From Methanobacteriota archaeon (GTDB lineage: Archaea > Thermoplasmatota > E2 > JACPAO01 > JAHWKR01): DNA of 64,000 bases. Positions 6,159 through 30,667 of the stretch are shown here, piece by piece. The notes below the pieces were generated by a model, which had not been told where the DNA came from, did no database searches, and saw only the letters and a list, made by a program, of their open reading frames with translations. Each line of letters starts with the position of its first letter. Position 1 is the first letter of the stretch. Location of the stretch: assembly GCA_019347805.1 (NCBI GenBank), contig JAHWKR010000010.1, positions 3,364-67,363 of the forward strand. Direction: 5' to 3'. Both the position numbers and the translations under genes were made by a program.

Positions 6159-6893
6159 CTAGGCCTCGGGCTCGAGTCCTTCCAGGGTGAACTCGAAGCG
6201 GGTCTTGTCCTTGCCTTTCGATCTCGTGCCGAGGACCTGCAAGCGGCCGATCTCGTCGGTGTTGCGGACATGGGTTCCAGCGCAGGGGCAGATGTCGAAG
6301 TCCTTGATCTCGATGACGCGCAGGTCCTCGATATGAGCGGGGATGAGGTCGAGGTTGGAGCGTTCCGGTTTGACGCGCTCCATGAGGCGTGTCCGGGCTT
6401 CGGTGTAGCAGTCGATAGAACGCTTGGAGGCGATGACCTGGTTGGCGTCCTCCTCGATCTGTACGAGGTCCGTCGCGGAGAGGGCGTCGAGGGAAAAATC
6501 GATGCGGGAGCGTGAGCGATGGATCTGGTTGCCGACGGTCCTTGCACCGCCGAATAGATCGTAGACGAGGGCCGAGACGAGATGCTGGGCGGTGTGCATG
6601 CGCATGTGGGCGTAGCGGCGCTCCCAGTCGACGAGCCCGGTCACCTTGGTGACCTCGTCGGGGACGTCCCCTTCGATGTAGTGCCGCACCTCGCCCTTCT
6701 TCTTGACGTCGCGTACCCGGACCGCCCCGTCGTCGTGGTGCAGTTCTCCGACATCGTGCTCCTGGCCGCCCCCCGTCGGATAGAATGCGGTGCGGTCGAG
6801 GACGAGATAGTCGTCGCCGCGCTTGACGACCTTCGCAGTGAAGTCCTTGAGGTAGTTGGCGTCGATGTCCGGCATGTGGAGCTGGAGGGTCAT
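6159..6893 (-). CDS. alaX: AlaX-type tRNA editing protein (alanyl-tRNA synthetase editing-domain homolog)
   Basis: Carries the zinc-binding motifs HTAQHLVSAL (HxxxH) and CPCAGTHV (CxxxH). Start chosen at MTLQLHMPD (6893). The ORF track extends to 7079 through a poly-C tract, and an alternative start is MEGAQQ at 6959. Confidence 0.75.
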   Translation of the reverse strand: MTLQLHMPDIDANYLKDFTAKVVKRGDDYLVLDRTAFYPTGGGQEHDVGELHHDDGAVRVRDVKKKGEVRHYIEGDVPDEVTKVTGLVDWERRYAHMRMHTAQHLVSALVYDLFGGARTVGNQIHRSRSRIDFSLDALSATDLVQIEEDANQVIASKRSIDCYTEARTRLMERVKPERSNLDLIPAHIEDLRVIEIKDFDICPCAGTHVRNTDEIGRLQVLGTRSKGKDKTRFEFTLEGLEPEA

Positions 6894-7080
6894 GCTGGCG
6901 ATGGCGGCTATCCCCCGGCGACCGGAAAAGGTTCTCGCCTCCTGTTGCGCTCCTTCCATGACGGAACCATCACGCTTATATGGGTAGCAGGTTTCGAAGG
7001 AAATCCCCCCACTTGGGCCCGCCGCTCCCCCCCCCCCCCTCGCGGCGGGCCCATTCCCCTTCACCTCCTTTCTTGACACC

Positions 7081-7153
7081 GGGCTCGTGGTCTAGCGGTC
7101 ATGACGGCGCCCTTACAAGGCGCAGGTCACCGGTTCAAATCCGGTCGAGCCCA
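7081..7153 (+). tRNA. tRNA-Val (anticodon TAC)
   Basis: Cloverleaf can be drawn by hand: acceptor GGGCTCG/CGAGCCC, anticodon stem GCGCC/GGCGC with loop CTTACAA, T-arm ACCGG-TTCAAAT-CCGGT, discriminator A. No encoded CCA. Confidence 0.85.
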
Positions 7154-7410
7154 TTCTACACGCTGCGCCTAACGGCGCAGATGCGTGGTATCTGGTCCCG
7201 ACCGGTGTCGCTCGCTGTCGCTCGCGATCCGGTCGAGCCCATTCTACATGCTGCGCCTAACGGCGCATCTGCGTGGTATCTGGTCCCGACCCGTGTCGCT
7301 CGCTGTCGCTCGCGATCCGGTCGAGCCCATCATACACGCTGCGCCTACTCTCGCGGGTGTCGTGGTCAGCCGGTCCCGACCGGTATCGCTCGCACGAGAG
7401 GATCGGTGAC
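7141..7410 (+). repeat. three tandem ~88-bp units, each beginning with the 3' end of tRNA-Val (atccggtcgagccca)
   Basis: Units at 7141-7228, 7229-7316 and 7317 to about 7400 (the third diverged). Each contains the hairpin ctgcgcctaacggcgcag. The repeated peptides seen in ORFs 7185..7409 and 7273..7491 are translations of this repeat. Confidence 0.8.
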
Positions 7411-7537
7411 GTAGCACAGATCCGGCCGGCCTTTTCTTCTCGTTCCCTCTCCTTGGCGCGGCGTCAGGCTCTTAAAGGGGACCCTTATTGAGCGGCATCG
7501 TCCCAGGAGGCGACCACCCTCCTTGGTGTCTTCTCGC

Positions 7538-7610
7538 AGCCCCGTAGTGTAGTGGTCAATCATGGTGGACTCTGGATCCGCCGACAGCGGTTCGAATCCG
7601 CTCGGGGCTA
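7538..7610 (+). tRNA. tRNA-Gln (anticodon CTG)
   Basis: Acceptor AGCCCCG/CGGGGCT, anticodon stem GTGGA/TCCGC with loop CTCTGGA, T-arm AGCGG-TTCGAAT-CCGCT, discriminator A. No encoded CCA. Confidence 0.8.
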
Positions 7611-7750
7611 TGAATCGCCGCCGGAGGCGGCTCTATACCCCCGGCGGCTGTTTCATTCCGGCTCGGGGCTATGGTTCGCGCGAGGGCGCGCTCCATATCC
7701 CCGGCGGCTGCTTCGCTCCGGCTCGGCCCGATTCCTCATGATACCGCACT
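7597..7750 (+). repeat. tandem ~60-bp units repeating the 3' end of tRNA-Gln (tccg(g)ctcggggctatg)
   Basis: Two additional copies of the tRNA 3'-terminal 14-16 nt plus about 45 nt of flank follow the tRNA (a unit starts near 7657 and another near 7717, the latter partial). They appear as the repeated peptide ARG..PYPRRL..SGS in ORF 7552..8148. Confidence 0.7.
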
Positions 7751-7833
7751 TCCAAAACCGCCCGTTCGGGATGGACCGCCGAACCTCCCCTCCCCCCTTC
7801 CTTTATGCCCTTCCGTCGCCCCTGCGCTCTTCG

Positions 7834-8350
7834 ATGCGCCCCCTCCTTGCCGTCCTCGTCGCCGTCGCGGTCGCTGTCGCCGGTTGTGCGACGGAAGAGA
7901 AGGACGACCAGGACCCGACCGGTTCCTCCGGTGACCCGGCTGTGAACAACACCACCTCGGCTCCTGTGGTCTTCAAGGGCGAAGGTCAGGTGACGGCGGG
8001 GGCGGTCGGGGCTTCGCTCGGTTCGGGCGGTGTGGAGTTCACCGTCGAAAGCGGTGCGACCTTGTTGTTCGCGGAGCTGGCGTGGGACGACGAGGTGCAG
8101 GACCTGGACCTTTCACTCTCTTCGCCGTCGGCAGTCCGCGGCCGGTGAAACGAGTTACGACCACAGCGCGGATGGCGGTAGACCGGGCGCGCCGGACAAC
8201 CCTCATTCGCTCACTATCAAGACGCCCGAAGCGGGCGATTGGCTCGGTGGGGCGTCACCCAACGGCGCCACAGGGACGGTTCCCTATCGCATCGCGGTGA
8301 CGGTCTTCTACGAGGAGACGGCCGTCCCTGAGGGCTACTCGGCGCTCTGA
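7834..8350 (+). pseudogene. secreted lipoprotein with a pre-peptidase C-terminal (PPC)-like domain, interrupted by a +1 frameshift near 8140
   Basis: Signal peptide and lipobox MRPLLAVLVAVAVAVAGC. Frame A ends ...DLDLSLSSPSAVRGR* at 8148. Frame B continues ...ETSYDHSADGGRPGAPDNPHSLTIKTPEAGDWLGG...VPYRIAVTVFY to 8350. Together they resemble one PPC domain (DLDL.L..P.G...a..G.y.i.V.gy). Confidence 0.5.
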
Positions 8351-13805: not shown

Positions 13806-14663
13806 ATGGACGACGAAGACGATGAGCGGACGCCAGGCCACACGGCGGCGTCCGTGGAAGGACCGCCGCTTTGGAGCGCGTGGCGCGCGCAAGACACGCA
13901 CGGCGCGCCCGGGGCCACGACGGAGACGTTCCCGCTCGGGTTGCCGGTGCTTTCGGGCGCCGACGGGGCACCGGCCGGTACGACCACCCTGCTCGAGGTC
14001 GGCCACATGTGGTCGCTCCTGCGCCACCGCATGGTGCTCGAGGCCTACCACCGCGGGCTTCCGGTCCTCCAGCTCGTCGGCGGCCACCGTCTCGACCCGT
14101 ACGGCCTGGCCCGTGCCGCGCGGGCCGCCGGCGAGGACGCGGAGGAGGTGCTCGGCCACGCGCAGGCGGCACGTGCCTTCACGGTGCATCAACTCTCGGC
14201 GTTCGTCGAGGAGGAGTTGCCGCGTCGTCTCAGCGGACCTGCGCTCGTCGTCCTCTCCGACCCGCTCGCGCTCTACGCCGGTGGCGAGGTGGAAGAGGAG
14301 GAAGGCCGGCGGCTCCTGCGTCGCGCTTTGCGGCGTTTCGTGCGCGCGGTCGCCGCGGCAGGCGCCTATGGTGTCGTCGCCGAGCGGCCGTTCGCGCGTG
14401 ACGACGCCGGTCGTGAGCTCTTGCGTCTGGCACGCCATGTCCAGGTGCGGCCGGCGGACGGCGGCATCGTCGCTGATGTCGTCCACAGCAAACGGCGCCT
14501 GCTGCAACCGACGGCACGGCCGCAGGCGCGCCTGGCCGACTATGGGGTCCAGGACCTCGGCCCCAGCCTGGTCGCGCTCCCGGAACCGGTCGCCACCGTG
14601 CGCGGTCCCCACTTCATGACCGGTCGTGTCGGGCATCTCAAGGTGCTCGCGGAGGGGATCTGA
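13806..14663 (+). CDS. hypothetical protein with a RecA/KaiC-like motif layout but a degenerate P-loop, 285 aa
   Basis: LGLPVLSGADGAPAGTTTLLEVG resembles the RecA-family L-helix plus P-loop but lacks the GKT lysine. ALVVLSDPLALYAGG resembles Walker B (hhhhDS). Its stop overlaps the next ATG (TGATG at 14660-14665). The fold assignment is inferred from motif spacing only. Confidence 0.45.
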   Translation: MDDEDDERTPGHTAASVEGPPLWSAWRAQDTHGAPGATTETFPLGLPVLSGADGAPAGTTTLLEVGHMWSLLRHRMVLEAYHRGLPVLQLVGGHRLDPYGLARAARAAGEDAEEVLGHAQAARAFTVHQLSAFVEEELPRRLSGPALVVLSDPLALYAGGEVEEEEGRRLLRRALRRFVRAVAAAGAYGVVAERPFARDDAGRELLRLARHVQVRPADGGIVADVVHSKRRLLQPTARPQARLADYGVQDLGPSLVALPEPVATVRGPHFMTGRVGHLKVLAEGI

Positions 14664-14986
14664 TGGGCCGCACGTTGCCGACCTTCCGGCGTGTCATCGA
14701 CGAGGAGGAGCGGCGCTGGAACGACCTGCGGCGCGGGCTCGGTCCGGAGGCGCAACGCGCTTTCGACGCGGTCTTCCAGCGCGCGCGGCGTCATGCCAGC
14801 GCGGCGGGCAACCAGGGCGTCGTCGAACCGATGTGGGCCATCATGCTGACGGTGCTCATCGAGAACGAGATGGAGCTGCAACGGCTCCTTGCGCGTGTCG
14901 CCTGGTTGGAGTCGGAGCTGGAGCGCAGGCCGCACAGCGAGACGTTCTATGCACCGGTCGTCGAGGACGAGGGCTGGGCGCCGTGA
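14663..14986 (+). CDS. small alpha-helical hypothetical protein (107 aa)
   Basis: The ORF is bracketed by translational coupling on both sides. Its ATG overlaps the upstream stop. Its TGA overlaps the GTG of the polB-like gene (GTGA at 14983-14986). Confidence 0.45.
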   Translation: MGRTLPTFRRVIDEEERRWNDLRRGLGPEAQRAFDAVFQRARRHASAAGNQGVVEPMWAIMLTVLIENEMELQRLLARVAWLESELERRPHSETFYAPVVEDEGWAP

Positions 14987-17325
14987 GCGCGACCGAGGGG
15001 CATCTCATCGATGTCCACCCGGACGGCCAGGGCCGCATGGTCTCCTGGGTGCGCACGAAAGAAGGTGTCGCACGTTTCGTCGAGCCGTTCGTGCCACGCT
15101 TCCATGTGCATGCGTCCGAGGCGGATCGCCGGCGGCTCACGCGTCGCCTGGCGCACCTGGACGGCCGGCTCGGGCTTTCGACGGTGCGGGCGCGCCTCGG
15201 CCTTGCGCGTGGCAAGACGGAGGTGCTCGAGGTCGCCGTGCCACATCCGCTCGTTCTGCGCGAGGTGGCGCAGGCGGTCGATCGCTGGGGCGAGCATCGC
15301 GCCTACGATCTGTTCGATGTCGACCTGCGCGACAGCCATCGCTATCTCCTTGCCAAGCGGGTGTTCCCGTTCGCGCGCGTGCGTGTCGCCCAAGAGGGCC
15401 GGAACGTGTCGATGGAGGCGTTAGACGGCCAGTGGGACCTGGCGCCGGAACCGCCGATGTTGCGCACGCTGACCTTGTCGGCGGAACTCGATGCCCCGAC
15501 CGGGATCCCGGAAGGCCCGGCCCACCCGGTCCGGCGTGTGCGGCTTGGCGACGAGGAATACCGCGGCGACGAGGTCGCGGTCTTGGAAGGGTTGCGCGAA
15601 GGCCTTCTGCGGCTCGACCCTGACGTGCTCCTCACCCGCTCCGGCGACCGGTTCCTTTTCGGCTATCTGCGGGCGCGGGCGAAGGCCAACGGCATGCGTC
15701 TGCGTTTGGGGCGTGACCCGGACCCGAGAGGCCCGGCACGACGCGGCCGTACGTTCTACACCTATGGCATGGTCAAGTGGCAACCACCGGTGGAGGTCCT
15801 GCATGGACGCATCCATCTCGATGTCGCCTCCAGTTTCTTCCATCGTGAATCCGGTCTTGGCGGTCTCGTGGACCTGTCGCGTATCTCGTCGTGTCCGTTG
15901 CAGGAGCTTGCGCGGCTCGGCCCGGGGACGGCGGTGACGGCGGTGCAGATCGACCGCGCCAAGCGCGAGGAACGGCTGGTCCCGTGGAAGAAGAACCTGC
16001 CGGAGACGATGAAGTCGGAGCGTCGGCTCGTCGAGTCGGACCGTGGCGGTTTCATCCATGACCCGTCGGTGGGGCTCTTCGACGATGTCGTGGAGCTCGA
16101 TTTCTCGTCCATGTACCCGAACATCATGGTGACGCGCAACGTTTCACCCGAGACGGTGGGATGCATCTGTTGTTCGCCGTCGACGCCGGGTGCATCGGTC
16201 GTGCCGCAGGTCGGCTATCTCACCTGTCGGCGCCCGGGGTTCGTGGGGCGTTCCATCAAGCCGCTCGTCGCGCGCCGGGAGTCGTTCAAGCGGCTCATGA
16301 AGAGCGACCCGAAGGACCGGGCGAGATGGCAGGGCGCGTCGGACGCGTTGAAGTGGCTCCTGGTCTGTTCGTTCGGTTACCAGGGGTATCGCAACGCGCG
16401 TTTCGGACGCATCGAATGCCATGAGGCGATCTGTGCCTGGGGTCGGGAGATCCTCTTGACGACCGGCGAGGTGGCGCGCGAGGAGGGCTTCGAGACGTTG
16501 CACGGCATCGTCGACAGCCTGTGGGTCAAGCGTCTTCGCAAGGACGCGGACGCGGAGCGTCTGTCGCGGCGGGTGTCGAAGGAGGTGGGCATCCGGTTCG
16601 ACATCGAGGGGGCGTTCGACTGGATCGTCTTCCTGCCGACGCGGGGGCACGACGCGACGGGGGTCGAAGCGGTAGGGGCCATGAACCGGTTCTACGGCAA
16701 GTTCTCCGAGCCGCCGGCGAAGAAGGCGCGTAGCAACGCGGGCCAGAGTCCGGACCATCTGGCGGGGGGTCAGCTCAAGGTGCGCGGGGTCGAGATGCGG
16801 CAGCGCAGCGCGCCGGGGATCGTGCGTCGGGCGCAGGAGGCGTTCCTTTCCGCGGTCTTTCCGGCAACGGACGCGGCGGGGTTCCGCGCGCTCCTTCCCG
16901 AGGCCATCGAGGCGGTGCGTCCGGTCGTCGAGGAGTTGCGTTCGGGGGCGGTGCCGCTATCCGACCTGTTGGTGCAGAAGACGGTGGGGCAGCCGCTTGC
17001 CGAGTACCGCATGGAGACGGAGACGAAGAGCGCCCTGCGGCTCTTGGCGCAGGCGGGGGTGCAGGTGCCACCGGGCGACGTGGTGCGTTATGTCGTTCTG
17101 GATGGTCGCGCCAAGACGCCGGAGCGGCGGGTCGTCGAGGAGCGGGTGATGACGGGTGACGAGCACTATGATGTCGCGGCGTACGAGACGTTGCTGTTCC
17201 GTTCCCTTGAGAGTCTCTTGTTGCCGTTCGGGTGGGACCTTGCGCGGATGCGCGACCACTTTTCGAATGCGCCGCAGGCGCGTCTGGATCGCTATGGGGT
17301 GGAGGCGGTGCGTGTCAGGTCTTGA
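14983..17325 (+). CDS. family-B DNA polymerase paralog with degenerate catalytic motifs (predicted inactive)
   Basis: Motif A is intact (DFSSMYPNIM). Motif B is recognisable (KWLLVCSFGYQGY). Motif C YGDTDS is replaced by HGIVDS. Exo II FDF is replaced by FLF (LTRSGDRFLFGYL). Exo I is D-V-D (LFDVDL). GTG start at 14983. Confidence 0.75.
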   Translation: MSATEGHLIDVHPDGQGRMVSWVRTKEGVARFVEPFVPRFHVHASEADRRRLTRRLAHLDGRLGLSTVRARLGLARGKTEVLEVAVPHPLVLREVAQAVDRWGEHRAYDLFDVDLRDSHRYLLAKRVFPFARVRVAQEGRNVSMEALDGQWDLAPEPPMLRTLTLSAELDAPTGIPEGPAHPVRRVRLGDEEYRGDEVAVLEGLREGLLRLDPDVLLTRSGDRFLFGYLRARAKANGMRLRLGRDPDPRGPARRGRTFYTYGMVKWQPPVEVLHGRIHLDVASSFFHRESGLGGLVDLSRISSCPLQELARLGPGTAVTAVQIDRAKREERLVPWKKNLPETMKSERRLVESDRGGFIHDPSVGLFDDVVELDFSSMYPNIMVTRNVSPETVGCICCSPSTPGASVVPQVGYLTCRRPGFVGRSIKPLVARRESFKRLMKSDPKDRARWQGASDALKWLLVCSFGYQGYRNARFGRIECHEAICAWGREILLTTGEVAREEGFETLHGIVDSLWVKRLRKDADAERLSRRVSKEVGIRFDIEGAFDWIVFLPTRGHDATGVEAVGAMNRFYGKFSEPPAKKARSNAGQSPDHLAGGQLKVRGVEMRQRSAPGIVRRAQEAFLSAVFPATDAAGFRALLPEAIEAVRPVVEELRSGAVPLSDLLVQKTVGQPLAEYRMETETKSALRLLAQAGVQVPPGDVVRYVVLDGRAKTPERRVVEERVMTGDEHYDVAAYETLLFRSLESLLLPFGWDLARMRDHFSNAPQARLDRYGVEAVRVRS

Positions 17326-21722: not shown

Positions 21723-22100
21723 TGCGTCTGGTCGCTTTTCGGCGTCAGCTCCCTCCAGCCGCGATGCTAAGGGAATCCGAACGAAAGTCCCTCACGACTC
21801 CGGCGTGAGCTTTCTCCAGATCTTCCTCGGAGCCTGCGACGAGGAGGGTCTGGGGCAAGTTCGCGCGAATCTATGATTTGCGCGTCAACTTGCGCCAGCT
21901 GCGCAGCTACTGGAAAGCGAACGCAAATCCCTCAGGACTTGCCCGTGAGCTTTCGCCAGGTCTTCCTCGGAGCCTGCGACGAGGAGGGTCTGGCGGGACT
22001 CGCGGAAGGCTACGCCTTCCGCGTCAGTTTCCGCCAGCTGCGCAGCTACTGGAAAGCGAGCGCAAGTCCCTCAGGACTTGCCCGTGAGCTTTCGCCAGAT
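21723..22100. repeat. three tandem ~130-135 bp intergenic repeats containing nested hairpins
   Basis: Unit core ctggaaagcgaGcgcaaGtccctcaggacttgcccgtgagctttcgccagRtcttcctcggagcctgcgacgaggagggtctgg is present three times. It contains the hairpin gcaagtcc-ctca-ggacttgc inside an outer gaaagc...gctttc stem. ORFs 21873..23480 and 21878..22087 are translations of these repeats. Confidence 0.7.
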
Positions 22101-22823
22101 CATACGCAGCGGGTCGTAGTACCGGTCCGACATCCGTTCCTTGAGCGGGATGATGCCGTTGTCGGTGATGACGATGTTCTCGGGGCACACCTCGGTGCAG
22201 CATCGGGTGATGTTGCAGTGGCCGACGCCGGAGGTCTCCTTGACGTAGGGGATGCGATCGGCGTCGTCCTTGGGGTGCATCTCGAGTTCCGCCAATCGGA
22301 TCATGTAGCGCGGCCCGTCGAAGACCTCTTTGTTCTCGGGGAAATCACGCAGGACGTGGCAGACGTTCTGGCACAGGAAGCATTCGATGCATTTCCGGAA
22401 CTCCTGCACCCGGTCGATGTCCTCCTGCTTCATGTTGAACTCGCCCTTCTTCGCCTCTTCGGGCGTGTAGGTCTTGGGCGTGAACGGCGTGATGCGCTTC
22501 TTGACGCGGTAGTTCCAGGAGACGTCGGTGACGAGGTCCTTCTGGAGCGGGAAGGTCTTCACGGGTCCGACGCGGATGGGGCCGTCGGGGAGGGTGTCCA
22601 TCCGGGTCATGCAGGTGAGCTTGGCCTTGCCGTTGATCTCGGCGCTGCACGAGCCGCACTTGCCGGCCTTGCAGTTCCAGCGGCAGGCGAGGTCGGTGGC
22701 CTGTTCGGCCTGGATGCGGTGGATGGCGTCGAGGACGACCATGCCTTCCTGTTGTTCGACCTCGTAATCCTCGTAGCGGCCGTTCTCTTTCGTGCCGCGG
22801 AAGATGGTGAGCGTGCGCTTCAA
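22071..22823 (-). CDS. sdhB: succinate dehydrogenase/fumarate reductase iron-sulfur subunit
   Basis: 2Fe-2S and 4Fe-4S cysteine clusters (CRWNCKAGKCGSCSAEING, CIECFLCQNVC, CNITRCCTEVCP). TTG start at 22823 overlaps the sdhA stop (TTGA). The ORF-track extension beyond it was rejected. Confidence 0.85.
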   Translation of the reverse strand: MKRTLTIFRGTKENGRYEDYEVEQQEGMVVLDAIHRIQAEQATDLACRWNCKAGKCGSCSAEINGKAKLTCMTRMDTLPDGPIRVGPVKTFPLQKDLVTDVSWNYRVKKRITPFTPKTYTPEEAKKGEFNMKQEDIDRVQEFRKCIECFLCQNVCHVLRDFPENKEVFDGPRYMIRLAELEMHPKDDADRIPYVKETSGVGHCNITRCCTEVCPENIVITDNGIIPLKERMSDRYYDPLRMIWRKLTGKS

Positions 22824-27643: not shown

Positions 27644-30600
27644 CTAGAGCCAGGCGTCCAGGCCCTTCTGTTCGACCGTCGAAAGGTCGTCGAAGCCGAA
27701 GGCGCCTTTGATGTAATTGTCCAGCATGTCCTTGTACCAGTCGAGGTCGAGGCGATAGCCGCGGTCCTCCCACTTCGGGAGCACCTCGACCGGCCACATG
27801 AACTCGATCGGCTTGATCCCCGGCTTCTTCTTGCCCGAACCTTCCAGGCCAGGCAAGGGGCGATTGGCGACGACGAAGCGGAACTTGCGCGTCGCCCGGA
27901 GCCCCGTCTCGTCACCGCTCTGCTTGAGCAGTTGGTCGAGCGCCTCGGCGCGCTTGGCGAACGTCGACAAGGAACCGTCGGGATTCCGCTTGTAGCGCCG
28001 CGCCGGCTGGACGCTCTGGATGAGCACCAGTTCGGCGGGGTCGACGGTGGCGATGCGCATCTTGGCGATGACCTCGTTGGCCGCCTTCTTGATGCTCGCC
28101 TTGAGGCTCGCCCGCGCCTGCTCCTCGGTCTCCCACACCAGGTTCTCCCCCATGGCCCGCTCCATCACCCGGGCGAGCACGTTGCGCGCGAGGTCCGCCT
28201 TGTCGCTGCCCTTGAAGTTGTTCCCCTTGACCTCCATCTGCAACCGGCCACCGTGGGCGTCGAACATGAGGTAGTTCTTGTGCACCACGAAGACCATGGC
28301 GTCGTGGATCTCCGGTTCCAGCTCGAACTCTTCGTAGCGCAGCTCGTCGCGGAAGCGGCGGTTCAGGGCGTCGACCGCCTCGATGGCCTGTTCCGGTGTC
28401 GTCATCCAACCCGACGGATCGGCAAGACCATGGGCGTCGAAGACATCGGCGACGCGGTCGATGTTGGCGCCGTTTCGACCGCACGCGAGATAGATGCCGT
28501 CGGTGTCGCCGTAGACGACGCGGATCTTGCGCTTGTCGAGGTCCCTGCGCGATTCGTGCAGGATGCGTTGTCCCTCCGTGGTGATGCGGGCGCCGGCGAG
28601 GACGTTGAACTGGCGGCACGACACATTGTCGGCGACGAGGATGCCGTGCGTCCCGGCGTTGCGTGCCGCCTTCAGGCTGGCATAGTTGAGCCGGAGCCGC
28701 GCGACATCATGCTCTGAGATGCCGGAATCCGGCTTCTTCGCTTCGTTCATGGCGTGCTTGACCTTGGCGATCATGCCGAGGATGGCGCTCATGCCGAGGT
28801 TCACGACACCGGGGCCGTCGCGCTGGCGCACCCCGATGAGCACGCCTTTGTCGGCGAAATCCTCGTCGCTCCCGGGGCTCCGGACGGCGTAGCGGCCCGA
28901 ATCGATGAGCCGAGGGCTCGCCCGCTTCAGCCACACCCAGGCGTCCGGGTCCTCGCCGGCGTGGGCCAGCCGGATCGTGTCGGCGCCGACGTTCAGGGCC
29001 TTCAGGATGGTGGGATACATCGCCCCCACGTCGGCGGCGACGACATGCCACCACGGGATGAACTCGCTCTTGAGGTCCTGCGGATGGAGCGTGAGACCCC
29101 CCGGAAGATCGTAGCCTTCCTTGCCGCCCTCGCGGTCGAGGTCGTGGACGAGATGCGGATAGGAGAGCCATTCGGGCATCTCGTCGCCATACTTCGCGAC
29201 GCGGACGAGCTCCCTGTGGCTCCCGGTGCGCCCTTCTGCGCCGATGCCGCGGGCGTACTCGGCGATCTGCTCGGGGGTCGGCTCGTCGGCGATCTCGCGC
29301 TGCACGAGTCCCGCCAGTCCGGCGGCGCGGCAGGTGGCGGGCATGAGGCGTTTTCGGTGGGCGGCACGGATGAGGCCGATGTGGTCCCACATCTTGGTGT
29401 TCATGCCCATGAACAGCTGTTCGAAGGTCATGCCTGTGGAGAACGCGAGCGGCAACGCCTGGATGACGAGGTGCATCGAGACGCCGAGCTGTTCGCGCAC
29501 GTCGTGTTCGTGGTAGCGCAACGTGCGCGGGTCGTCGAGGGCGAGGTCCTGTGCGGTGACATGCTCCCGTCCGTCGATCTCGACGCCCAAAAACGGCGCG
29601 AGCCCCTTGAGGGTCAGGTCATCGCGGAAGAAATAGAAACGGCGGGCGGCAAGGAACGTGTCGAGGCTCGCCGGATGCAGGATGGCCATGTCGTCGGGGC
29701 GGCCGAACTGGTACGACTTGTCCTTCCAGCACCAGGTCGAAAGGAACTCGGTGAAGACCTGGTCGACGCTGCGTTCGAGGCTGCCGTTCTTGCGGCCCCG
29801 TTCCTGCAGTTTCTTGACCCGTTCGTGGATCTTCAGATTGTCGAAGCCGAGGATGTTGTGGCCCGAGACGATGCCGGTGCTACGCACGGTCGTGGCGAAG
29901 CGCGCCAGCATATCGATCTCCTCGTCGACGTTGCGGGCCACCTCCTGGACGATCTCGGGCTCCCACCAGTCGTGCGGGGCGTGGTGGATGTCGAAGTCGA
30001 AGTCCTCCGTCTCGAGGTCGACCTTGGCGGAATAGGAGACCGGGAAGCGGGCGTGGCCGAGCATGTCGATCGGCAGGTCGTCCTCGCGCACGCCGACGTT
30101 GCCGTATTGCGTCGTCTCGATGTCGAACACCATCACATCGAGCGTCGTCGGCCGGCCTCCCGTCGCGAACGGCCAGTGGCCCCTGGCGGCCATGTCGACG
30201 GCGAAACGTTGCTGGTACGGCACGTCATGCTCGGCGGTGTAGGCGCCGAAGCGGTCGAAGAGCGCGTCCGAGACACGCGGCACGACGCCGGGGTGGCGGG
30301 TGAAGACCCGGAAACCGTCGCGCGTCCGGTCGTGCCAGAACGATTCCACCGTCTCGACGGGACCCAGTTCGGTGACGAGTCCGAGCGGGTCGCGTTCGTG
30401 CTGCTCGCCGCCGTTGCCTTCGGTCGACCGGCTCGCCTCGTCCACCGCCCGCAGCACGCTCCGTCGGAGCCCCTTGGTGTCCTTGCCGAGCGGGGCGTAA
30501 GCCCAGAAGTAGGGCTTGTGCAGTTCACCGACCGGCACCGGGTCGCGCCCCTTGAAGAAGGCGTGCGTGTTCGAGACGGAGAGGAGGACGTCCTCCATGG

Positions 30601-30667
30601 GCGGTCCTGGCGAGGTGGGGGGAGCGTAAAAGGTGCGCGGGGTGATGTCGTGTGGAGCGCGGTCCAT
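27644..30667 (-). CDS. polB: family-B DNA polymerase (catalytically intact, presumed replicative)
   Basis: 1007 aa. Exo I FDIETT. Exo II HNILGFDNLKI (FD retained). Motif A DVGAMYPTIL. Motif C VVYGDTDGIYL. No intein-like blocks seen. Confidence 0.9.
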   Translation of the reverse strand: MDRAPHDITPRTFYAPPTSPGPPMEDVLLSVSNTHAFFKGRDPVPVGELHKPYFWAYAPLGKDTKGLRRSVLRAVDEASRSTEGNGGEQHERDPLGLVTELGPVETVESFWHDRTRDGFRVFTRHPGVVPRVSDALFDRFGAYTAEHDVPYQQRFAVDMAARGHWPFATGGRPTTLDVMVFDIETTQYGNVGVREDDLPIDMLGHARFPVSYSAKVDLETEDFDFDIHHAPHDWWEPEIVQEVARNVDEEIDMLARFATTVRSTGIVSGHNILGFDNLKIHERVKKLQERGRKNGSLERSVDQVFTEFLSTWCWKDKSYQFGRPDDMAILHPASLDTFLAARRFYFFRDDLTLKGLAPFLGVEIDGREHVTAQDLALDDPRTLRYHEHDVREQLGVSMHLVIQALPLAFSTGMTFEQLFMGMNTKMWDHIGLIRAAHRKRLMPATCRAAGLAGLVQREIADEPTPEQIAEYARGIGAEGRTGSHRELVRVAKYGDEMPEWLSYPHLVHDLDREGGKEGYDLPGGLTLHPQDLKSEFIPWWHVVAADVGAMYPTILKALNVGADTIRLAHAGEDPDAWVWLKRASPRLIDSGRYAVRSPGSDEDFADKGVLIGVRQRDGPGVVNLGMSAILGMIAKVKHAMNEAKKPDSGISEHDVARLRLNYASLKAARNAGTHGILVADNVSCRQFNVLAGARITTEGQRILHESRRDLDKRKIRVVYGDTDGIYLACGRNGANIDRVADVFDAHGLADPSGWMTTPEQAIEAVDALNRRFRDELRYEEFELEPEIHDAMVFVVHKNYLMFDAHGGRLQMEVKGNNFKGSDKADLARNVLARVMERAMGENLVWETEEQARASLKASIKKAANEVIAKMRIATVDPAELVLIQSVQPARRYKRNPDGSLSTFAKRAEALDQLLKQSGDETGLRATRKFRFVVANRPLPGLEGSGKKKPGIKPIEFMWPVEVLPKWEDRGYRLDLDWYKDMLDNYIKGAFGFDDLSTVEQKGLDAWL

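What the first reader, a model, noticed from the sequence alone, without database searches (positions are those of the whole stretch)
7081..7750. Both tRNA genes are followed by tandem arrays that repeat the tRNA 3' end
tRNA-Val (7081-7153) is followed by three 88-bp tandem units. Each begins with atccggtcgagccca (the T-stem/acceptor 3' end). Each contains the hairpin ctgcgcctaacggcgcag. tRNA-Gln (7538-7610) is followed by two further 60-bp units beginning tccg(g)ctcggggctatg. This is the sequence signature of att-site duplication by tRNA-targeting integrases, but here it is iterated. No integrase gene is in the window. The pattern suggests serial integration and excision scars or a different tRNA-flank repeat mechanism. 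The downstream PPC-lipoprotein gene is frameshifted, consistent with a decaying inserted region.
Basis: seen in the sequence. Interest (0 to 1): 0.6.

Follow-up and report, generated by a model that had tools for sequence, protein, structure and literature searches.

The report
Repeated tRNA tails behind tRNA genes
Two neighbouring archaeal tRNA genes are each followed by short tandem repeats that copy the tRNA's last ~15 bases; this is not a virus-integration scar but looks like an archaeal counterpart of the poorly understood E. coli tyrT/RtT repeats, and similar arrays are common in uncultured archaea.

Summary
tRNA-Val(TAC) is followed by two 88-nt units and one diverged 102-nt unit. tRNA-Gln(CTG) is followed by a 61-nt and a 60-nt unit. 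Each unit ends in a copy of that tRNA's 3' end.

The integrase-scar reading fails:
- The spacers are copies of one another.
- They are 46-73 nt long and hold no genes.
- No integrase, transposase or Cas1 was found among 47 ORFs of the window.
- Base composition is uniform.
- A relative (76% identity in the flanking AlaX protein) carries homologous units ending in its own tRNA's 3' end.

A metagenome scan found the same layout behind at least 43 real tRNA genes (Val, Met, Ile; also Gln, Pro and Lys as bystanders). These come from Poseidoniales and other archaea. Unit number varies from 0 to 3 among close strains. The marine unit family has covariation-supported hairpins.

E. coli tyrT/RtT repeats (Rfam RF00391) have the same architecture: a helix whose 3' strand is the tRNA-end copy, enclosing inner hairpins.

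My best reading is that the arrays are recombination-made, dispensable, RtT-like trailer repeats kept matched to the live tRNA and probably co-transcribed with it. Function is untested. An unknown insertion mechanism that duplicates its target is not excluded.

The parts
6976..6981 (+). TTATAT, a candidate archaeal TATA box for the tRNA-Val transcript (inferred)
   Evidence: Read from the sequence. Relatives L143 and L144 have TTATAT/TTTATA at a comparable distance upstream. Not tested.
7014..7053 (+). Leader hairpin TGGGCCCGCCGC-(C-rich 16-nt loop)-GCGGCGGGCCCA. It is minihelix-like and carries the acceptor stem GGGCCCG/CGGGCCC+A that relatives' tRNA-Val has. It is followed by TTC, as the tRNA is.
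   Evidence: Perfect 12-bp inverted repeat I3. Fold z = -7.2, 0 of 200 shuffles as stable. The closest relative, L144, has the same CCCCCCACTTGGGCCCG at this position. Interpretation as a relic of an older tRNA-Val copy is inference.
7081..7153 (+). tRNA-Val(TAC), intact, no encoded CCA
   Evidence: ARAGORN; Rfam tRNA 70.2 bits.
7154..7241 (+). Val unit 1 (88 nt). Contains hairpin 7163-7180, 5' strand TGGTCCCGACCGG at 7193-7205, an internal 10-nt duplication at 7206-7225, and the 3'-end copy ATCCGGTCGAGCCCA at 7227-7241.
   Evidence: Fold z = -3.9 on the sense strand and -5.7 on the antisense strand.
7242..7329 (+). Val unit 2 (88 nt, 95% identical to unit 1). 3'-end copy at 7315-7329.
   Evidence: family D1. 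Fold z = -2.5.
7330..7431 (+). Val unit 3 (102 nt, diverged, oldest). Its interior still aligns to tRNA-Val positions 1-57. It ends in the ancestral-type 3' copy GATCCGGCCGGCC at 7419-7431.
   Evidence: Local alignment to the tRNA body gives z = 3.1, p about 0.005. The terminal copy matches relative L084's tRNA end at the two diagnostic positions. Not significantly structured, z = -0.3.
7432..7444 (+). T-rich tract TTTTCTTCTCGTT right after the Val array, a candidate archaeal terminator (inferred)
   Evidence: Read from the sequence. In other lineages T-runs likewise follow the last 3'-end copy. Not tested.
7538..7610 (+). tRNA-Gln(CTG), intact
   Evidence: ARAGORN; Rfam tRNA 59.8 bits.
7611..7671 (+). 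Gln unit 1 (61 nt). Hairpin GCCGCC-GGA-GGCGGC at 7617-7631, CCCCGGCGGCTG at 7639-7650, 3'-end copy TCCGGCTCGGGGCTA at 7657-7671.
   Evidence: The interior is conserved in relative L084, z = 7.1. Fold z = -1.0 only.
7672..7731 (+). Gln unit 2 (60 nt). Hairpin with a different stem, GCGCG-AGGG-CGCGC, inside 7678-7691. Degenerate 3' copy TCCGGCTCGGCCCGA at 7717-7731.
   Evidence: Fold z = +1.5, i.e. not structured overall.

Best explanation
The arrays are tandem duplications of each tRNA gene's own 3' end together with its hairpin-bearing trailer. They are the same kind of object as the E. coli tyrT/RtT repeats.

Supported by the sequence comparisons here:
- One unit has been amplified.
- Inner copies match the present tRNA, while the outermost copy keeps an older sequence.
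- Unit number changes between close strains.

Inferred mechanism of origin and maintenance:
- Units are gained and lost by recombination or replication slippage between the repeated 3'-end copies.
- The copies are kept in step with the live tRNA by gene conversion.
- For the Val array, the first event probably duplicated the whole tRNA gene, because unit 3 still aligns to the tRNA body.

Inferred and untested behaviour:
- The array is transcribed from the tRNA promoter as a long 3' trailer, up to the T-rich tract at 7432-7444.
- Its hairpins fold in that trailer.
- Each tRNA-like end offers the tRNA 3'-processing machinery (tRNase Z and related enzymes) an extra cutting site, so unit-length RNAs are released as in RtT.

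The arrays are dispensable and may have no function of their own.
For: Unit amplification:
- Units 1 and 2 are 95% identical over 88 nt.
- The units occur nowhere else in the window.

Concerted evolution:
- Relative L084 (AlaX 76% identical) has tRNA-Val followed by a 97-nt unit that ends in its own 3' end, CCGGCCGGGCCCA.
- The window's inner copies carry the window tRNA's derived bases. The terminal copy at 7419-7431 and the leader hairpin keep the L084-type sequence.

Constraint or persistence:
- The AlaX-tRNA spacer is unalignable between the window and L084 (z = -0.5), yet the Gln-type unit interior is conserved (z = 7.1).

Generality:
- A scan for a doubled Val-type 3' end found 57 metagenome loci. 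In 43 of them the first copy is the end of a real tRNA: 32 Val-CAC, 8 Val-TAC, 2 Met, 1 Ile. One to three more copies follow that are not tRNAs.
- Bystander tRNAs Gln, Pro and Lys in L105/L117 have units ending in their own 3' ends.

Dynamics:
- Loci sharing the same downstream flank have 1 or 2 units.
- Strains with an identical neighbouring protein have 0 units or 1 unit plus a 31-nt mini-unit.
- Terminal units are degenerate or truncated.

Structure:
- 22 marine units give 96% paired cells and 7 pairs with compensatory changes. The covariation score is 0.274 against 0.137 in shuffles, 0 of 500 as high.
- In those helices there are 24 G-U against 6 A-C cells, and the sense strand is more stable in 17 of 22 units.

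Known analogue, tested here:
- In E. coli K-12, tyrV is followed by a 178-bp x 3.1 array in which each unit ends in the tRNA-Tyr 3' end.
- The Rfam RtT consensus pairs GgGaaGGAU with that copy and encloses inner hairpins.

No mobile-element genes were found near the arrays.
Against: - There are no transcript data, so co-transcription and processing are inference only.
- In the window the units fold better as antisense (z = -5.7 against -3.9), and the Gln units are not significantly structured.
- Pairing of the 3' copy with its upstream complement is individually significant in only 8 of 66 units, and not in the window.
- Local duplication does not explain why units behind four different tRNAs in L105/L117 share one core (hairpin GGGACCTTGTGTCCC, AGTTTTCCC, GGCTTTTCTAAAAGGC) while each has arms matching its own tRNA.
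- Arrays can hold strongly diverged unit types side by side, as in L086, L100, L115 and L099.
- Empty and filled sites among near-identical strains fit insertion as well as deletion.
Confidence: 0.5

Rival explanations
1. The units are small non-autonomous elements. An unidentified enzyme inserts them one after another at tRNA 3' ends and duplicates 15-26 nt of the target each time, in the manner of Cas1/casposase or another integrase. The array would then grow next to the tRNA as CRISPR or casposon arrays do.
For: - Empty versus filled sites occur with clean boundaries in strains that share an identical neighbouring protein.
- The same unit core sits behind Gln, Val, Val and Lys tRNAs of one organism, each flanked by that tRNA's own end.
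- Arrays are heterogeneous and cassette-like, and one unit type (GCCGTCATGAACATCC...TAGTTCATTGACA) is shared by L086, L115 and L225.
- The window's repeat is 15 nt long. That equals the casposon target duplication at a tRNA 3' end in the related archaeon Aciduliprofundum boonei, where tandem arrays are predicted (PMC5137440).
- The newest-looking units lie next to the tRNA.
Against: - The units have no terminal inverted repeats, judged by eye from the unit ends printed; no dedicated scan was run.
- The duplicated length ranges from 14 to 35 nt between lineages.
- No Cas1, transposase or integrase was found in the window or beside the arrays in L093 and L105.
- Many arrays end in a unit that lacks the 3'-end copy, which fits duplication better than insertion.
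- Recombination between the repeats also produces empty sites.
Confidence: 0.17
2. The arrays are integration scars. Each extra 3'-end copy is an attR or attL left by a tRNA-targeting integrase element that later excised or decayed.
For: The duplicated segment runs from the T-loop or T-stem to the discriminator base. That is the usual identity block of tRNA att sites (established knowledge; tRNA fragments left by integration are discussed in PMC9897764). Both neighbouring tRNAs are affected.
Against: - Spacers are 73 and 46 nt, hold no gene, and are homologous to each other at 95%.
- There is no integrase among 47 ORFs of the window, nor beside the arrays in L093 and L105.
- GC content is uniform.
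- Homologous units are present in a diverged relative.
- No IMG/VR viral contig carries the doubled pattern or the marine tRNA-Val 3' end.
- An element bearing one tRNA's end cannot move to another tRNA without breaking that tRNA.
Confidence: 0.08
3. The arrays are purely neutral debris. Tandemly duplicated whole tRNA genes decayed to fragments, and the hairpins are leftovers of tRNA stems or self-correcting palindromes. No RNA-level behaviour is worth naming.
For: - Unit 3 aligns to the tRNA-Val body (z = 3.1, p about 0.005).
- The leader hairpin keeps a perfect ancestral acceptor stem.
- The Gln units are unstructured.
- Unit-less strains exist.
- The window has another non-coding tandem array that is not linked to a tRNA.
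Against: - In 52 other units the interior shows no similarity to the tRNA body (mean z = -0.35).
- The inner hairpins of the marine family are not tRNA-derived, yet they covary with a bias towards G-U pairs on the sense strand.
- The Gln-type unit is conserved where neutral spacer is scrambled.
Confidence: 0.2
4. The arrays are an assembly artefact of a repeat-prone region in a metagenome-assembled genome.
For: - The source is a metagenome-assembled genome.
- A C13 homopolymer and a frameshifted gene lie nearby.
- Short-read contigs of relatives break inside or just before this tRNA.
Against: - The units differ from one another by point changes.
- The same layout is seen in dozens of independent assemblies made with different assemblers, and in finished E. 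coli genomes.
Confidence: 0.02

Closest known systems
E. coli tyrT/tyrV distal repeats and RtT RNA (Rfam RF00391; gene rttR)
   Same: - A tRNA gene is followed by tandem units (178 bp x 3.1), each ending in the tRNA's last ~19 nt.
- In the family's consensus structure an upstream strand pairs with that 3'-end copy and encloses inner hairpins. This is the layout predicted for the archaeal units.
- The repeats are chromosomal and are not part of a mobile element.
- An sRNA is reported to come from one repeat unit (PMC3318445).
   Different: - There is no sequence or covariance-model similarity; RF00391 does not hit the window or the archaeal loci.
- The host domain differs (bacteria versus archaea).
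- The units here are 60-100 nt rather than 178 nt.
- Other tRNAs are involved (Val, Gln, Met, Ile, Lys, Pro).
- The E. coli unit also holds the small ORF tpr.
- Transcription and processing are not shown here.
t-elements: tRNA-like structures cut by RNase P and tRNase Z (Haloferax volcanii 5S rRNA leader; plant mitochondrial mRNAs)
   Same: Both are partial tRNA mimics built from acceptor/T-arm-like sequence and embedded in longer transcripts. t-elements are known substrates of tRNA-processing enzymes in an archaeon (PMC4326828) and in plant mitochondria (PMC1920247). This is the mechanism proposed here for releasing units.
   Different: - t-elements are single and are not tandem copies of the neighbouring tRNA's end.
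- The window's units lack the T-loop motif GGTTCRANYCC.
- The marine units keep a whole T-arm but have no paired acceptor stem.
- Processing was not tested.
attL/attR duplication by tRNA-targeting tyrosine integrases (proviruses, integrative plasmids)
   Same: There is a direct repeat of the tRNA's 3' part downstream of an intact tRNA gene.
   Different: There is no element and no integrase between or near the repeats. The spacers are 46-73 nt and homologous to each other. The arrays are shared with relatives.
Casposon target-site duplications at tRNA 3' ends, and CRISPR repeat duplication (Cas1 family)
   Same: Both give iterated duplication of a 15-bp (casposon) or longer (CRISPR) target next to a recognised 'leader' that includes the T-loop, with tandem arrays growing at the leader side (PMC5137440). 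The window's repeat is 15 nt.
   Different: The units have no terminal inverted repeats (judged by eye, not scanned). No Cas1 or casposon gene set was found; two PolB-like ORFs are present, but without Cas1. The 'spacers' are homologous to each other. The duplicated length varies from 14 to 35 nt.
Tandem tRNA gene duplicates and tRNA pseudogene fragments
   Same: Unit 3 of the Val array still aligns with the tRNA body, and the leader hairpin keeps an acceptor stem.
   Different: Units 1 and 2, the Gln units and 52 units from other lineages show no similarity to the tRNA beyond the 3' end.

Membership tests
Integrase att-site duplication (integrated element scar) | Direct repeat of the tRNA 3' segment flanking inserted DNA | tested here: met
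   Exact 15-nt copies at 7139, 7227 and 7315. Gln copies at 7657 and 7717.
Integrase att-site duplication (integrated element scar) | Element-sized DNA carrying an integrase, or other mobile-element genes, between or beside the repeats | tested here: not met
   Spacers are 73 and 46 nt. 47 ORFs of the window are all housekeeping.
Integrase att-site duplication (integrated element scar) | Successive inserts are independent, i.e. unrelated sequences, if integration was serial | tested here: not met
   Units are 95% identical. Unit 3 is homologous to units 1 and 2.
Integrase att-site duplication (integrated element scar) | A matching attP in viruses or plasmids | tested here: inconclusive
   IMG/VR gave 0 hits for the doubled pattern and 0 for the marine tRNA-Val end. 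The window 15-mer gave 56 hits; I judged this about what chance would give and did not examine them. Plasmids of this lineage were not searchable.
RtT RNA (Rfam RF00391) | Match to the family covariance model | tested here: not met
   There are no RtT hits in the window at E<=10 or in L084, L093, L099, L104 and L105. The E. coli control hits four times at 133-137 bits.
RtT RNA (Rfam RF00391) | Tandem units after a tRNA gene, each ending in the tRNA's 3' end | tested here: met
   for the window; for E. coli.
RtT RNA (Rfam RF00391) | A long-range helix using the 3'-end copy and enclosing inner hairpins | tested here: inconclusive
   The helix is predicted in window Val units 1 and 2 and in L084. 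The pairing is not above shuffles in the window (p = 0.18). It is supported by covariation in the marine family and significant in 8 of 66 units.
RtT RNA (Rfam RF00391) | Released as an RNA from the tRNA primary transcript | not testable with these tools
   No transcript data are available.
t-element (tRNA-like processing signal) | T-arm motif GGTTCRANYCC together with a paired acceptor-like stem | tested here: not met
   In the array region the motif occurs only in the two real tRNAs, at 7132 and 7589. Marine units have the T-arm but an unpaired acceptor strand.
t-element (tRNA-like processing signal) | Cleavage by RNase P and tRNase Z | not testable with these tools
   This requires an enzyme assay or mapping of RNA ends.
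Casposon / Cas1-type tandem insertion | Terminal inverted repeats at the insert ends and a Cas1 gene in the genome neighbourhood | tested here: not met
   The unit ends are not inverted repeats, judged by eye from the sequence; no dedicated scan was run. There is no Cas1 among 47 ORFs.
Casposon / Cas1-type tandem insertion | Target duplication of fixed length (15 +/- 2 bp) | tested here: inconclusive
   It is 15 nt in the window's Val array, but 14-35 nt in other lineages.
Generic dispersed repeat (REP/MITE-like) | Copies at many loci not linked to tRNAs | tested here: not met
   There are no other copies in the 64-kb window. Outside the window, homologous units were seen only behind tRNA genes, found by inspection and by the tRNA-end scan. 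BLAST of the window units against the ~1 Mb of other archaeal loci gave no unit match at all. The rest of the genome was not available.
Decayed tandem tRNA gene copy (pseudo-tRNA) | Unit interior alignable to the tRNA body | tested here: inconclusive
   Met for Val unit 3 (z = 3.1, p about 0.005). Not met for units 1 and 2 or the Gln units, nor for 52 units elsewhere.

The most novel reading that the evidence does not exclude
The units belong to an unrecognised, widespread archaeal class of tRNA-attached hairpin modules that are more than duplication debris. There are two versions of this reading. In the first, they are selected trailer RNAs cut out by tRNA-processing enzymes, ending in a tRNA-like tail, and acting as regulators or decoys for tRNA-binding proteins. 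In the second, they are cassettes added one by one at tRNA ends by a still unknown target-duplicating integrase, which would make tRNA genes the 'leaders' of CRISPR-like arrays.
Probability: 0.25. Interest if true: 0.8.

Novelty: new variant of a known kind. Interest (0 to 1): 0.5.

Why it matters
The E. coli tyrT/RtT repeats have been known since the 1970s-90s, but they are treated as an enterobacterial oddity of unclear function.

This work shows that the same architecture recurs in archaea with unrelated sequences. It is found behind many different tRNAs, in abundant uncultured groups such as Poseidoniales, and with covariation-supported hairpins and fast copy-number change. That suggests either a general property of tRNA genes or an unrecognised class of tRNA-linked RNAs or elements. 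A general property could be recombination-prone 3' ends that spawn tRNA-like trailers.

There are also practical consequences:
- Such arrays break short-read assemblies at tRNA genes.
- They mimic att sites in genomic-island and prophage finders.
- They may be mistaken for tRNA fragments left by integration.

Marine metatranscriptomes could test directly whether the arrays are transcribed and processed.

Tried and rejected
1. The first homologue search used the upstream ORF one base out of frame (6159-6894) and found nothing. The correct gene is AlaX at 6162-6893.
2. The genome-contig scan with AlaX gave only Thermoplasmatota at 44-54% identity and no tRNA synteny, so it did not help with the locus.
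3. Exact look-ups of the window's own AlaX protein failed.
4. Contigs of the closest relatives (AlaX 75-80% identical) end before or inside tRNA-Val. This may reflect repeats, but it is not diagnostic, because tRNA isoacceptors also break de Bruijn graphs.
5. Viral scans were uninformative: 0 hits, 0 hits, and 56 hits that I judged to be about chance level.
6. 'Units are scrambled tRNA copies' is rejected as a general statement. The resemblance of unit 1's hairpin to the anticodon arm is not significant (z = 0.3-0.9), and unit interiors elsewhere are unlike the tRNA body. Only unit 3 passes.
7. 'Every unit is an acceptor/T-arm minihelix' is rejected as a general statement. The duplex test was significant in only 8 of 66 units.
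8. The whole-unit sense-versus-antisense folding test was inconclusive. Only the test restricted to the marine consensus helices favours the sense strand.
9. Rfam finds no family in any unit.
10. Literature searches found no description of such arrays in archaea. Bösl & Kersten 1991 was not held.
Full report
**What is in the window**

ARAGORN and Rfam find two intact tRNA genes on the + strand: tRNA-Val(TAC) at 7081-7153 and tRNA-Gln(CTG) at 7538-7610. Tandem Repeats Finder reports an 88-nt array (7139-7393, 2.9 copies) and a 60-nt array (7600-7726, 2.1 copies). The 15-mer ATCCGGTCGAGCCCA covers the last 2 nt of the T-loop, the 3' strand of the T-stem, the 3' strand of the acceptor stem and the discriminator base. 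It occurs exactly three times, 88 nt apart, and nowhere else in 64 kb. BLAST of the units finds no dispersed copies.

Read in register, the Val locus is:
- tRNA-Val.
- Unit 1 (7154-7241).
- Unit 2 (7242-7329, 95% identical to unit 1).
- A diverged 102-nt unit 3 (7330-7431), closed by a degenerate copy GATCCGGCCGGCC.
- A T-rich tract, TTTTCTTCTCGTT.

The Gln locus is tRNA-Gln, a 61-nt unit ending in TCCGGCTCGGGGCTA, and a 60-nt unit ending in a degenerate TCCGGCTCGGCCCGA. The observation therefore stands, with the corrections listed under the observation check.

**Context**

The upstream divergent gene is an AlaX-type alanyl-tRNA editing protein. It is 100% identical to an NCBI MAG protein labelled 'Euryarchaeota archaeon'. 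Species representatives reach only 44-54% identity, and nearly all of them are labelled Thermoplasmatota-type archaea. Pfam scans of 47 ORFs covering the window give housekeeping families only. These include adenylosuccinate synthetase, FKBP, shikimate-pathway enzymes, ABC transporters and two family-B polymerase-like ORFs. No integrase, transposase or Cas1 was found. GC content is flat. The lipoprotein gene at 7834 is frameshifted. When the two frames are fused, the product hits PPC only weakly. Nothing else marks an inserted or decaying region.

**Relatives of this lineage**

- L083 (AlaX 64% identical) has tRNA-Val(TAC) and tRNA-Gln(CTG) in the same order but no arrays.
- L084 (AlaX 76% identical) has tRNA-Val(TAC) followed by a 97-nt unit that ends in its own 3' end, CAAATCCGGCCGGGCCCA. 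This differs from the window's 3' end at two positions. A sequence homologous to the window's Gln-type unit follows, with a hairpin of different stem sequence.
- The AlaX-tRNA spacer cannot be aligned between the window and L084 (z = -0.5), whereas the Gln-type unit interior can (z = 7.1).

The window's terminal Val copy (7419-7431) and the leader hairpin at 7014-7053 carry the L084-type bases, while the inner copies carry the window tRNA's derived bases. This is the pattern expected when inner repeats are refreshed from the live gene and edge repeats escape. Unit 3 still aligns with tRNA-Val positions 1-57 (z = 3.1, p about 0.005). Units 1 and 2 and the Gln units do not.

**How general the layout is**

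One metagenome scan used the pattern TCCGGYCGRGCCCA-N60-90-TCCGGYCGRGCCCA and returned 57 loci.
- Three are false positives, being coding or very short repeats.
- In 43 the first copy is the end of an ARAGORN-called tRNA: 32 Val-CAC, 8 Val-TAC, 2 Met and 1 Ile-TAT. The one to three further copies, 82-169 nt apart, are not tRNAs.
- The remaining loci start inside the array or have intron-containing tRNAs.

The pattern fixes both the tRNA end and the spacing, so these numbers say nothing about frequency. Bystander tRNAs in the same contigs are informative, however. In L105 and L117, tRNA-Gln(TTG), Pro(TGG) and Lys(CTT) each have a unit ending in their own 3' end, while Arg and Phe have none. Four of those units share one core, yet their arms match the respective tRNA.

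The large marine family belongs to Poseidoniaceae/Poseidoniales, judged by the names given to neighbouring-gene homologues. Genes flanking the arrays are housekeeping.

**Structure**

Most unit families fold as a hairpin just after the tRNA end. A longer helix follows, whose 3' strand is the tRNA-end copy and which encloses another hairpin.

For 22 marine units the consensus has 96% of cells paired and 7 pairs with changes on both sides. Its covariation score is 0.274 against 0.137 in shuffles (0 of 500 as high), and the score collapses when partners are slid. In those helices G-U outnumbers A-C by 24 to 6, and the sense strand is more stable in 17 of 22 units. This points to RNA in the tRNA's orientation, although the sequences are related and the counts are not independent.

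The picture is weaker for the window itself:
- Val units 1 and 2 are more stable than shuffles (z = -3.9 and -2.5), but their antisense is more stable still (z = -5.7).
- Unit 3 and the Gln units are not significantly structured.
- The pairing of the 3' copy with TGGTCCCGACCGG (11 of 13 positions) is not above shuffles.

**Dynamics**

Loci sharing the same downstream flank carry one or two units. A sample drawn without regard to repeats used contigs that encode an identical radical-SAM protein next to tRNA-Val(CAC). It shows seven contigs with no unit, one contig (L225) with one unit plus a 31-nt mini-unit, and two contigs that end inside the tRNA. The units are therefore dispensable and turn over quickly. 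Empty sites read E|CCAGC... and filled sites read E-unit-E|CCAAC..., where E is the tRNA's 3'-end segment. Both recombination between the repeats and insertion would produce this.

**Comparison with what is known**

In E. coli K-12, tRNA-Tyr (tyrV) is followed by a 178-bp x 3.1 array. Each unit ends in AATCCTTCCCCCACCACCA, which is the tRNA-Tyr 3' end. The region is annotated rttR and tpr. Rfam RtT hits four times there, and its consensus structure pairs GgGaaGGAU with the tRNA-end copy around inner hairpins. That is the architecture seen here. The model does not hit any archaeal unit, so this is a likeness in working plan, not membership.

tRNA-like 't-elements' cut by RNase P and tRNase Z are documented in Haloferax and in plant mitochondria. 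They give a plausible route for processing, but the window's units lack the T-loop motif. Casposons duplicate 15 bp at a tRNA 3' end in a related archaeon and can form tandem arrays. The window's 15-nt repeat matches that length. However, the units show no terminal inverted repeats (judged by eye), no Cas1 is present, and the duplicated length varies from 14 to 35 nt elsewhere.

**Verdict**

The integrase-scar interpretation is not supported. The arrays are best read as RtT-like tandem duplications of the tRNA 3' end plus its structured trailer. They are made and resized by recombination between the copies and kept matched to the live tRNA. They are probably transcribed with the tRNA, and they are dispensable. 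Confidence in this reading is 0.5.

Two things remain unexplained. One is the shared unit core behind different tRNAs in one organism. The other is the coexistence of diverged unit types in one array. Together they keep an unknown target-duplicating insertion mechanism alive at about 0.17. No function has been shown.

Noticed in passing
window 21738-22101: A third non-coding tandem array (140 nt x 2.6, 82% matches). It is hairpin-rich, lies in a convergent intergenic region, and is not linked to a tRNA. No other copy exists in the window.
   Followed up: partly
window 7014-7053: A perfect 12-bp hairpin with a C13-containing loop lies between the presumed TATA box and tRNA-Val. Its stem is the acceptor stem of relatives' tRNA-Val plus the discriminator A, and it is followed by TTC as the tRNA is. 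It is possibly the relic of an older tRNA-Val copy at the promoter-proximal position (fold z = -7.2).
   Followed up: partly
window 7834-8350: A lipoprotein gene (signal peptide with lipobox VAGC) has a frameshift near 8135-8145. The fused product hits the PPC domain only weakly (E = 0.018). It could be a pseudogene or a sequencing error in the MAG.
   Followed up: partly
window 7176-7185 versus 7264-7273: Units 1 and 2 differ by a dinucleotide inversion inside a small palindrome (CGCAGATGCG versus CGCATCTGCG). This is the kind of change made by template switching in quasi-palindromes. Each unit also holds an internal 10-nt tandem duplication, TGTCGCTCGC x 2 (7206-7225 and 7294-7313).
   Followed up: no
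window 14626-17322 (+) and 27647-30667 (-): Two family-B DNA polymerase-like ORFs lie within 13 kb of each other, the second matching only weakly. No Cas1 is nearby, so nothing suggests a casposon.
   Followed up: no
L084 (minus strand), about 170-300 nt after tRNA-Val: This relative lacks tRNA-Gln here. The homologue of the window's Gln-type unit follows the Val unit directly and ends in a Val-like 3' copy (GGCCGGCCGGGCCCGA). This suggests a deletion by recombination between 3'-end copies of different tRNAs.
   Followed up: partly
L105 10728-10890, 13345-13505, 13785-13950; L117 7959-8120, 13203-13365: In one low-GC archaeon the units behind tRNA-Gln, Val(TAC), Val(CAC) and Lys share a core, made of the hairpin GGGACCTTGTGTCCC, AGTTTTCCC, and a terminator-like hairpin GGCTTTTCTAAAAGGC. 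Their arms match each tRNA. It looks like a T-arm split by a ~30-nt insert flanked by TTC. tRNA-Pro also has a unit ending in its own 3' end, but its interior differs from this core.
   Followed up: partly
L099 (minus strand), after tRNA-Met: Units of 167 and 169 nt have identical first 58 nt and identical 3' ends. Their two inner hairpins differ by many compensatory changes. A third unit of an unrelated 85-nt type follows.
   Followed up: no
L225 versus L219-L224 and L227, just after tRNA-Val(CAC): These strains have an identical upstream protein and spacer, but they differ in having units and are much more diverged downstream of the tRNA. The tRNA may mark a recombination boundary between genome backbones.
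   Followed up: no
L001 about 7600-7990 (minus strand): Tandem repeats of ~150 nt contain GGGATTTGAACC, the reverse complement of a T-arm, next to a doubtful ARAGORN tRNA-Thr call. They may be intron-containing or unusual tRNA genes on the other strand.
   Followed up: no
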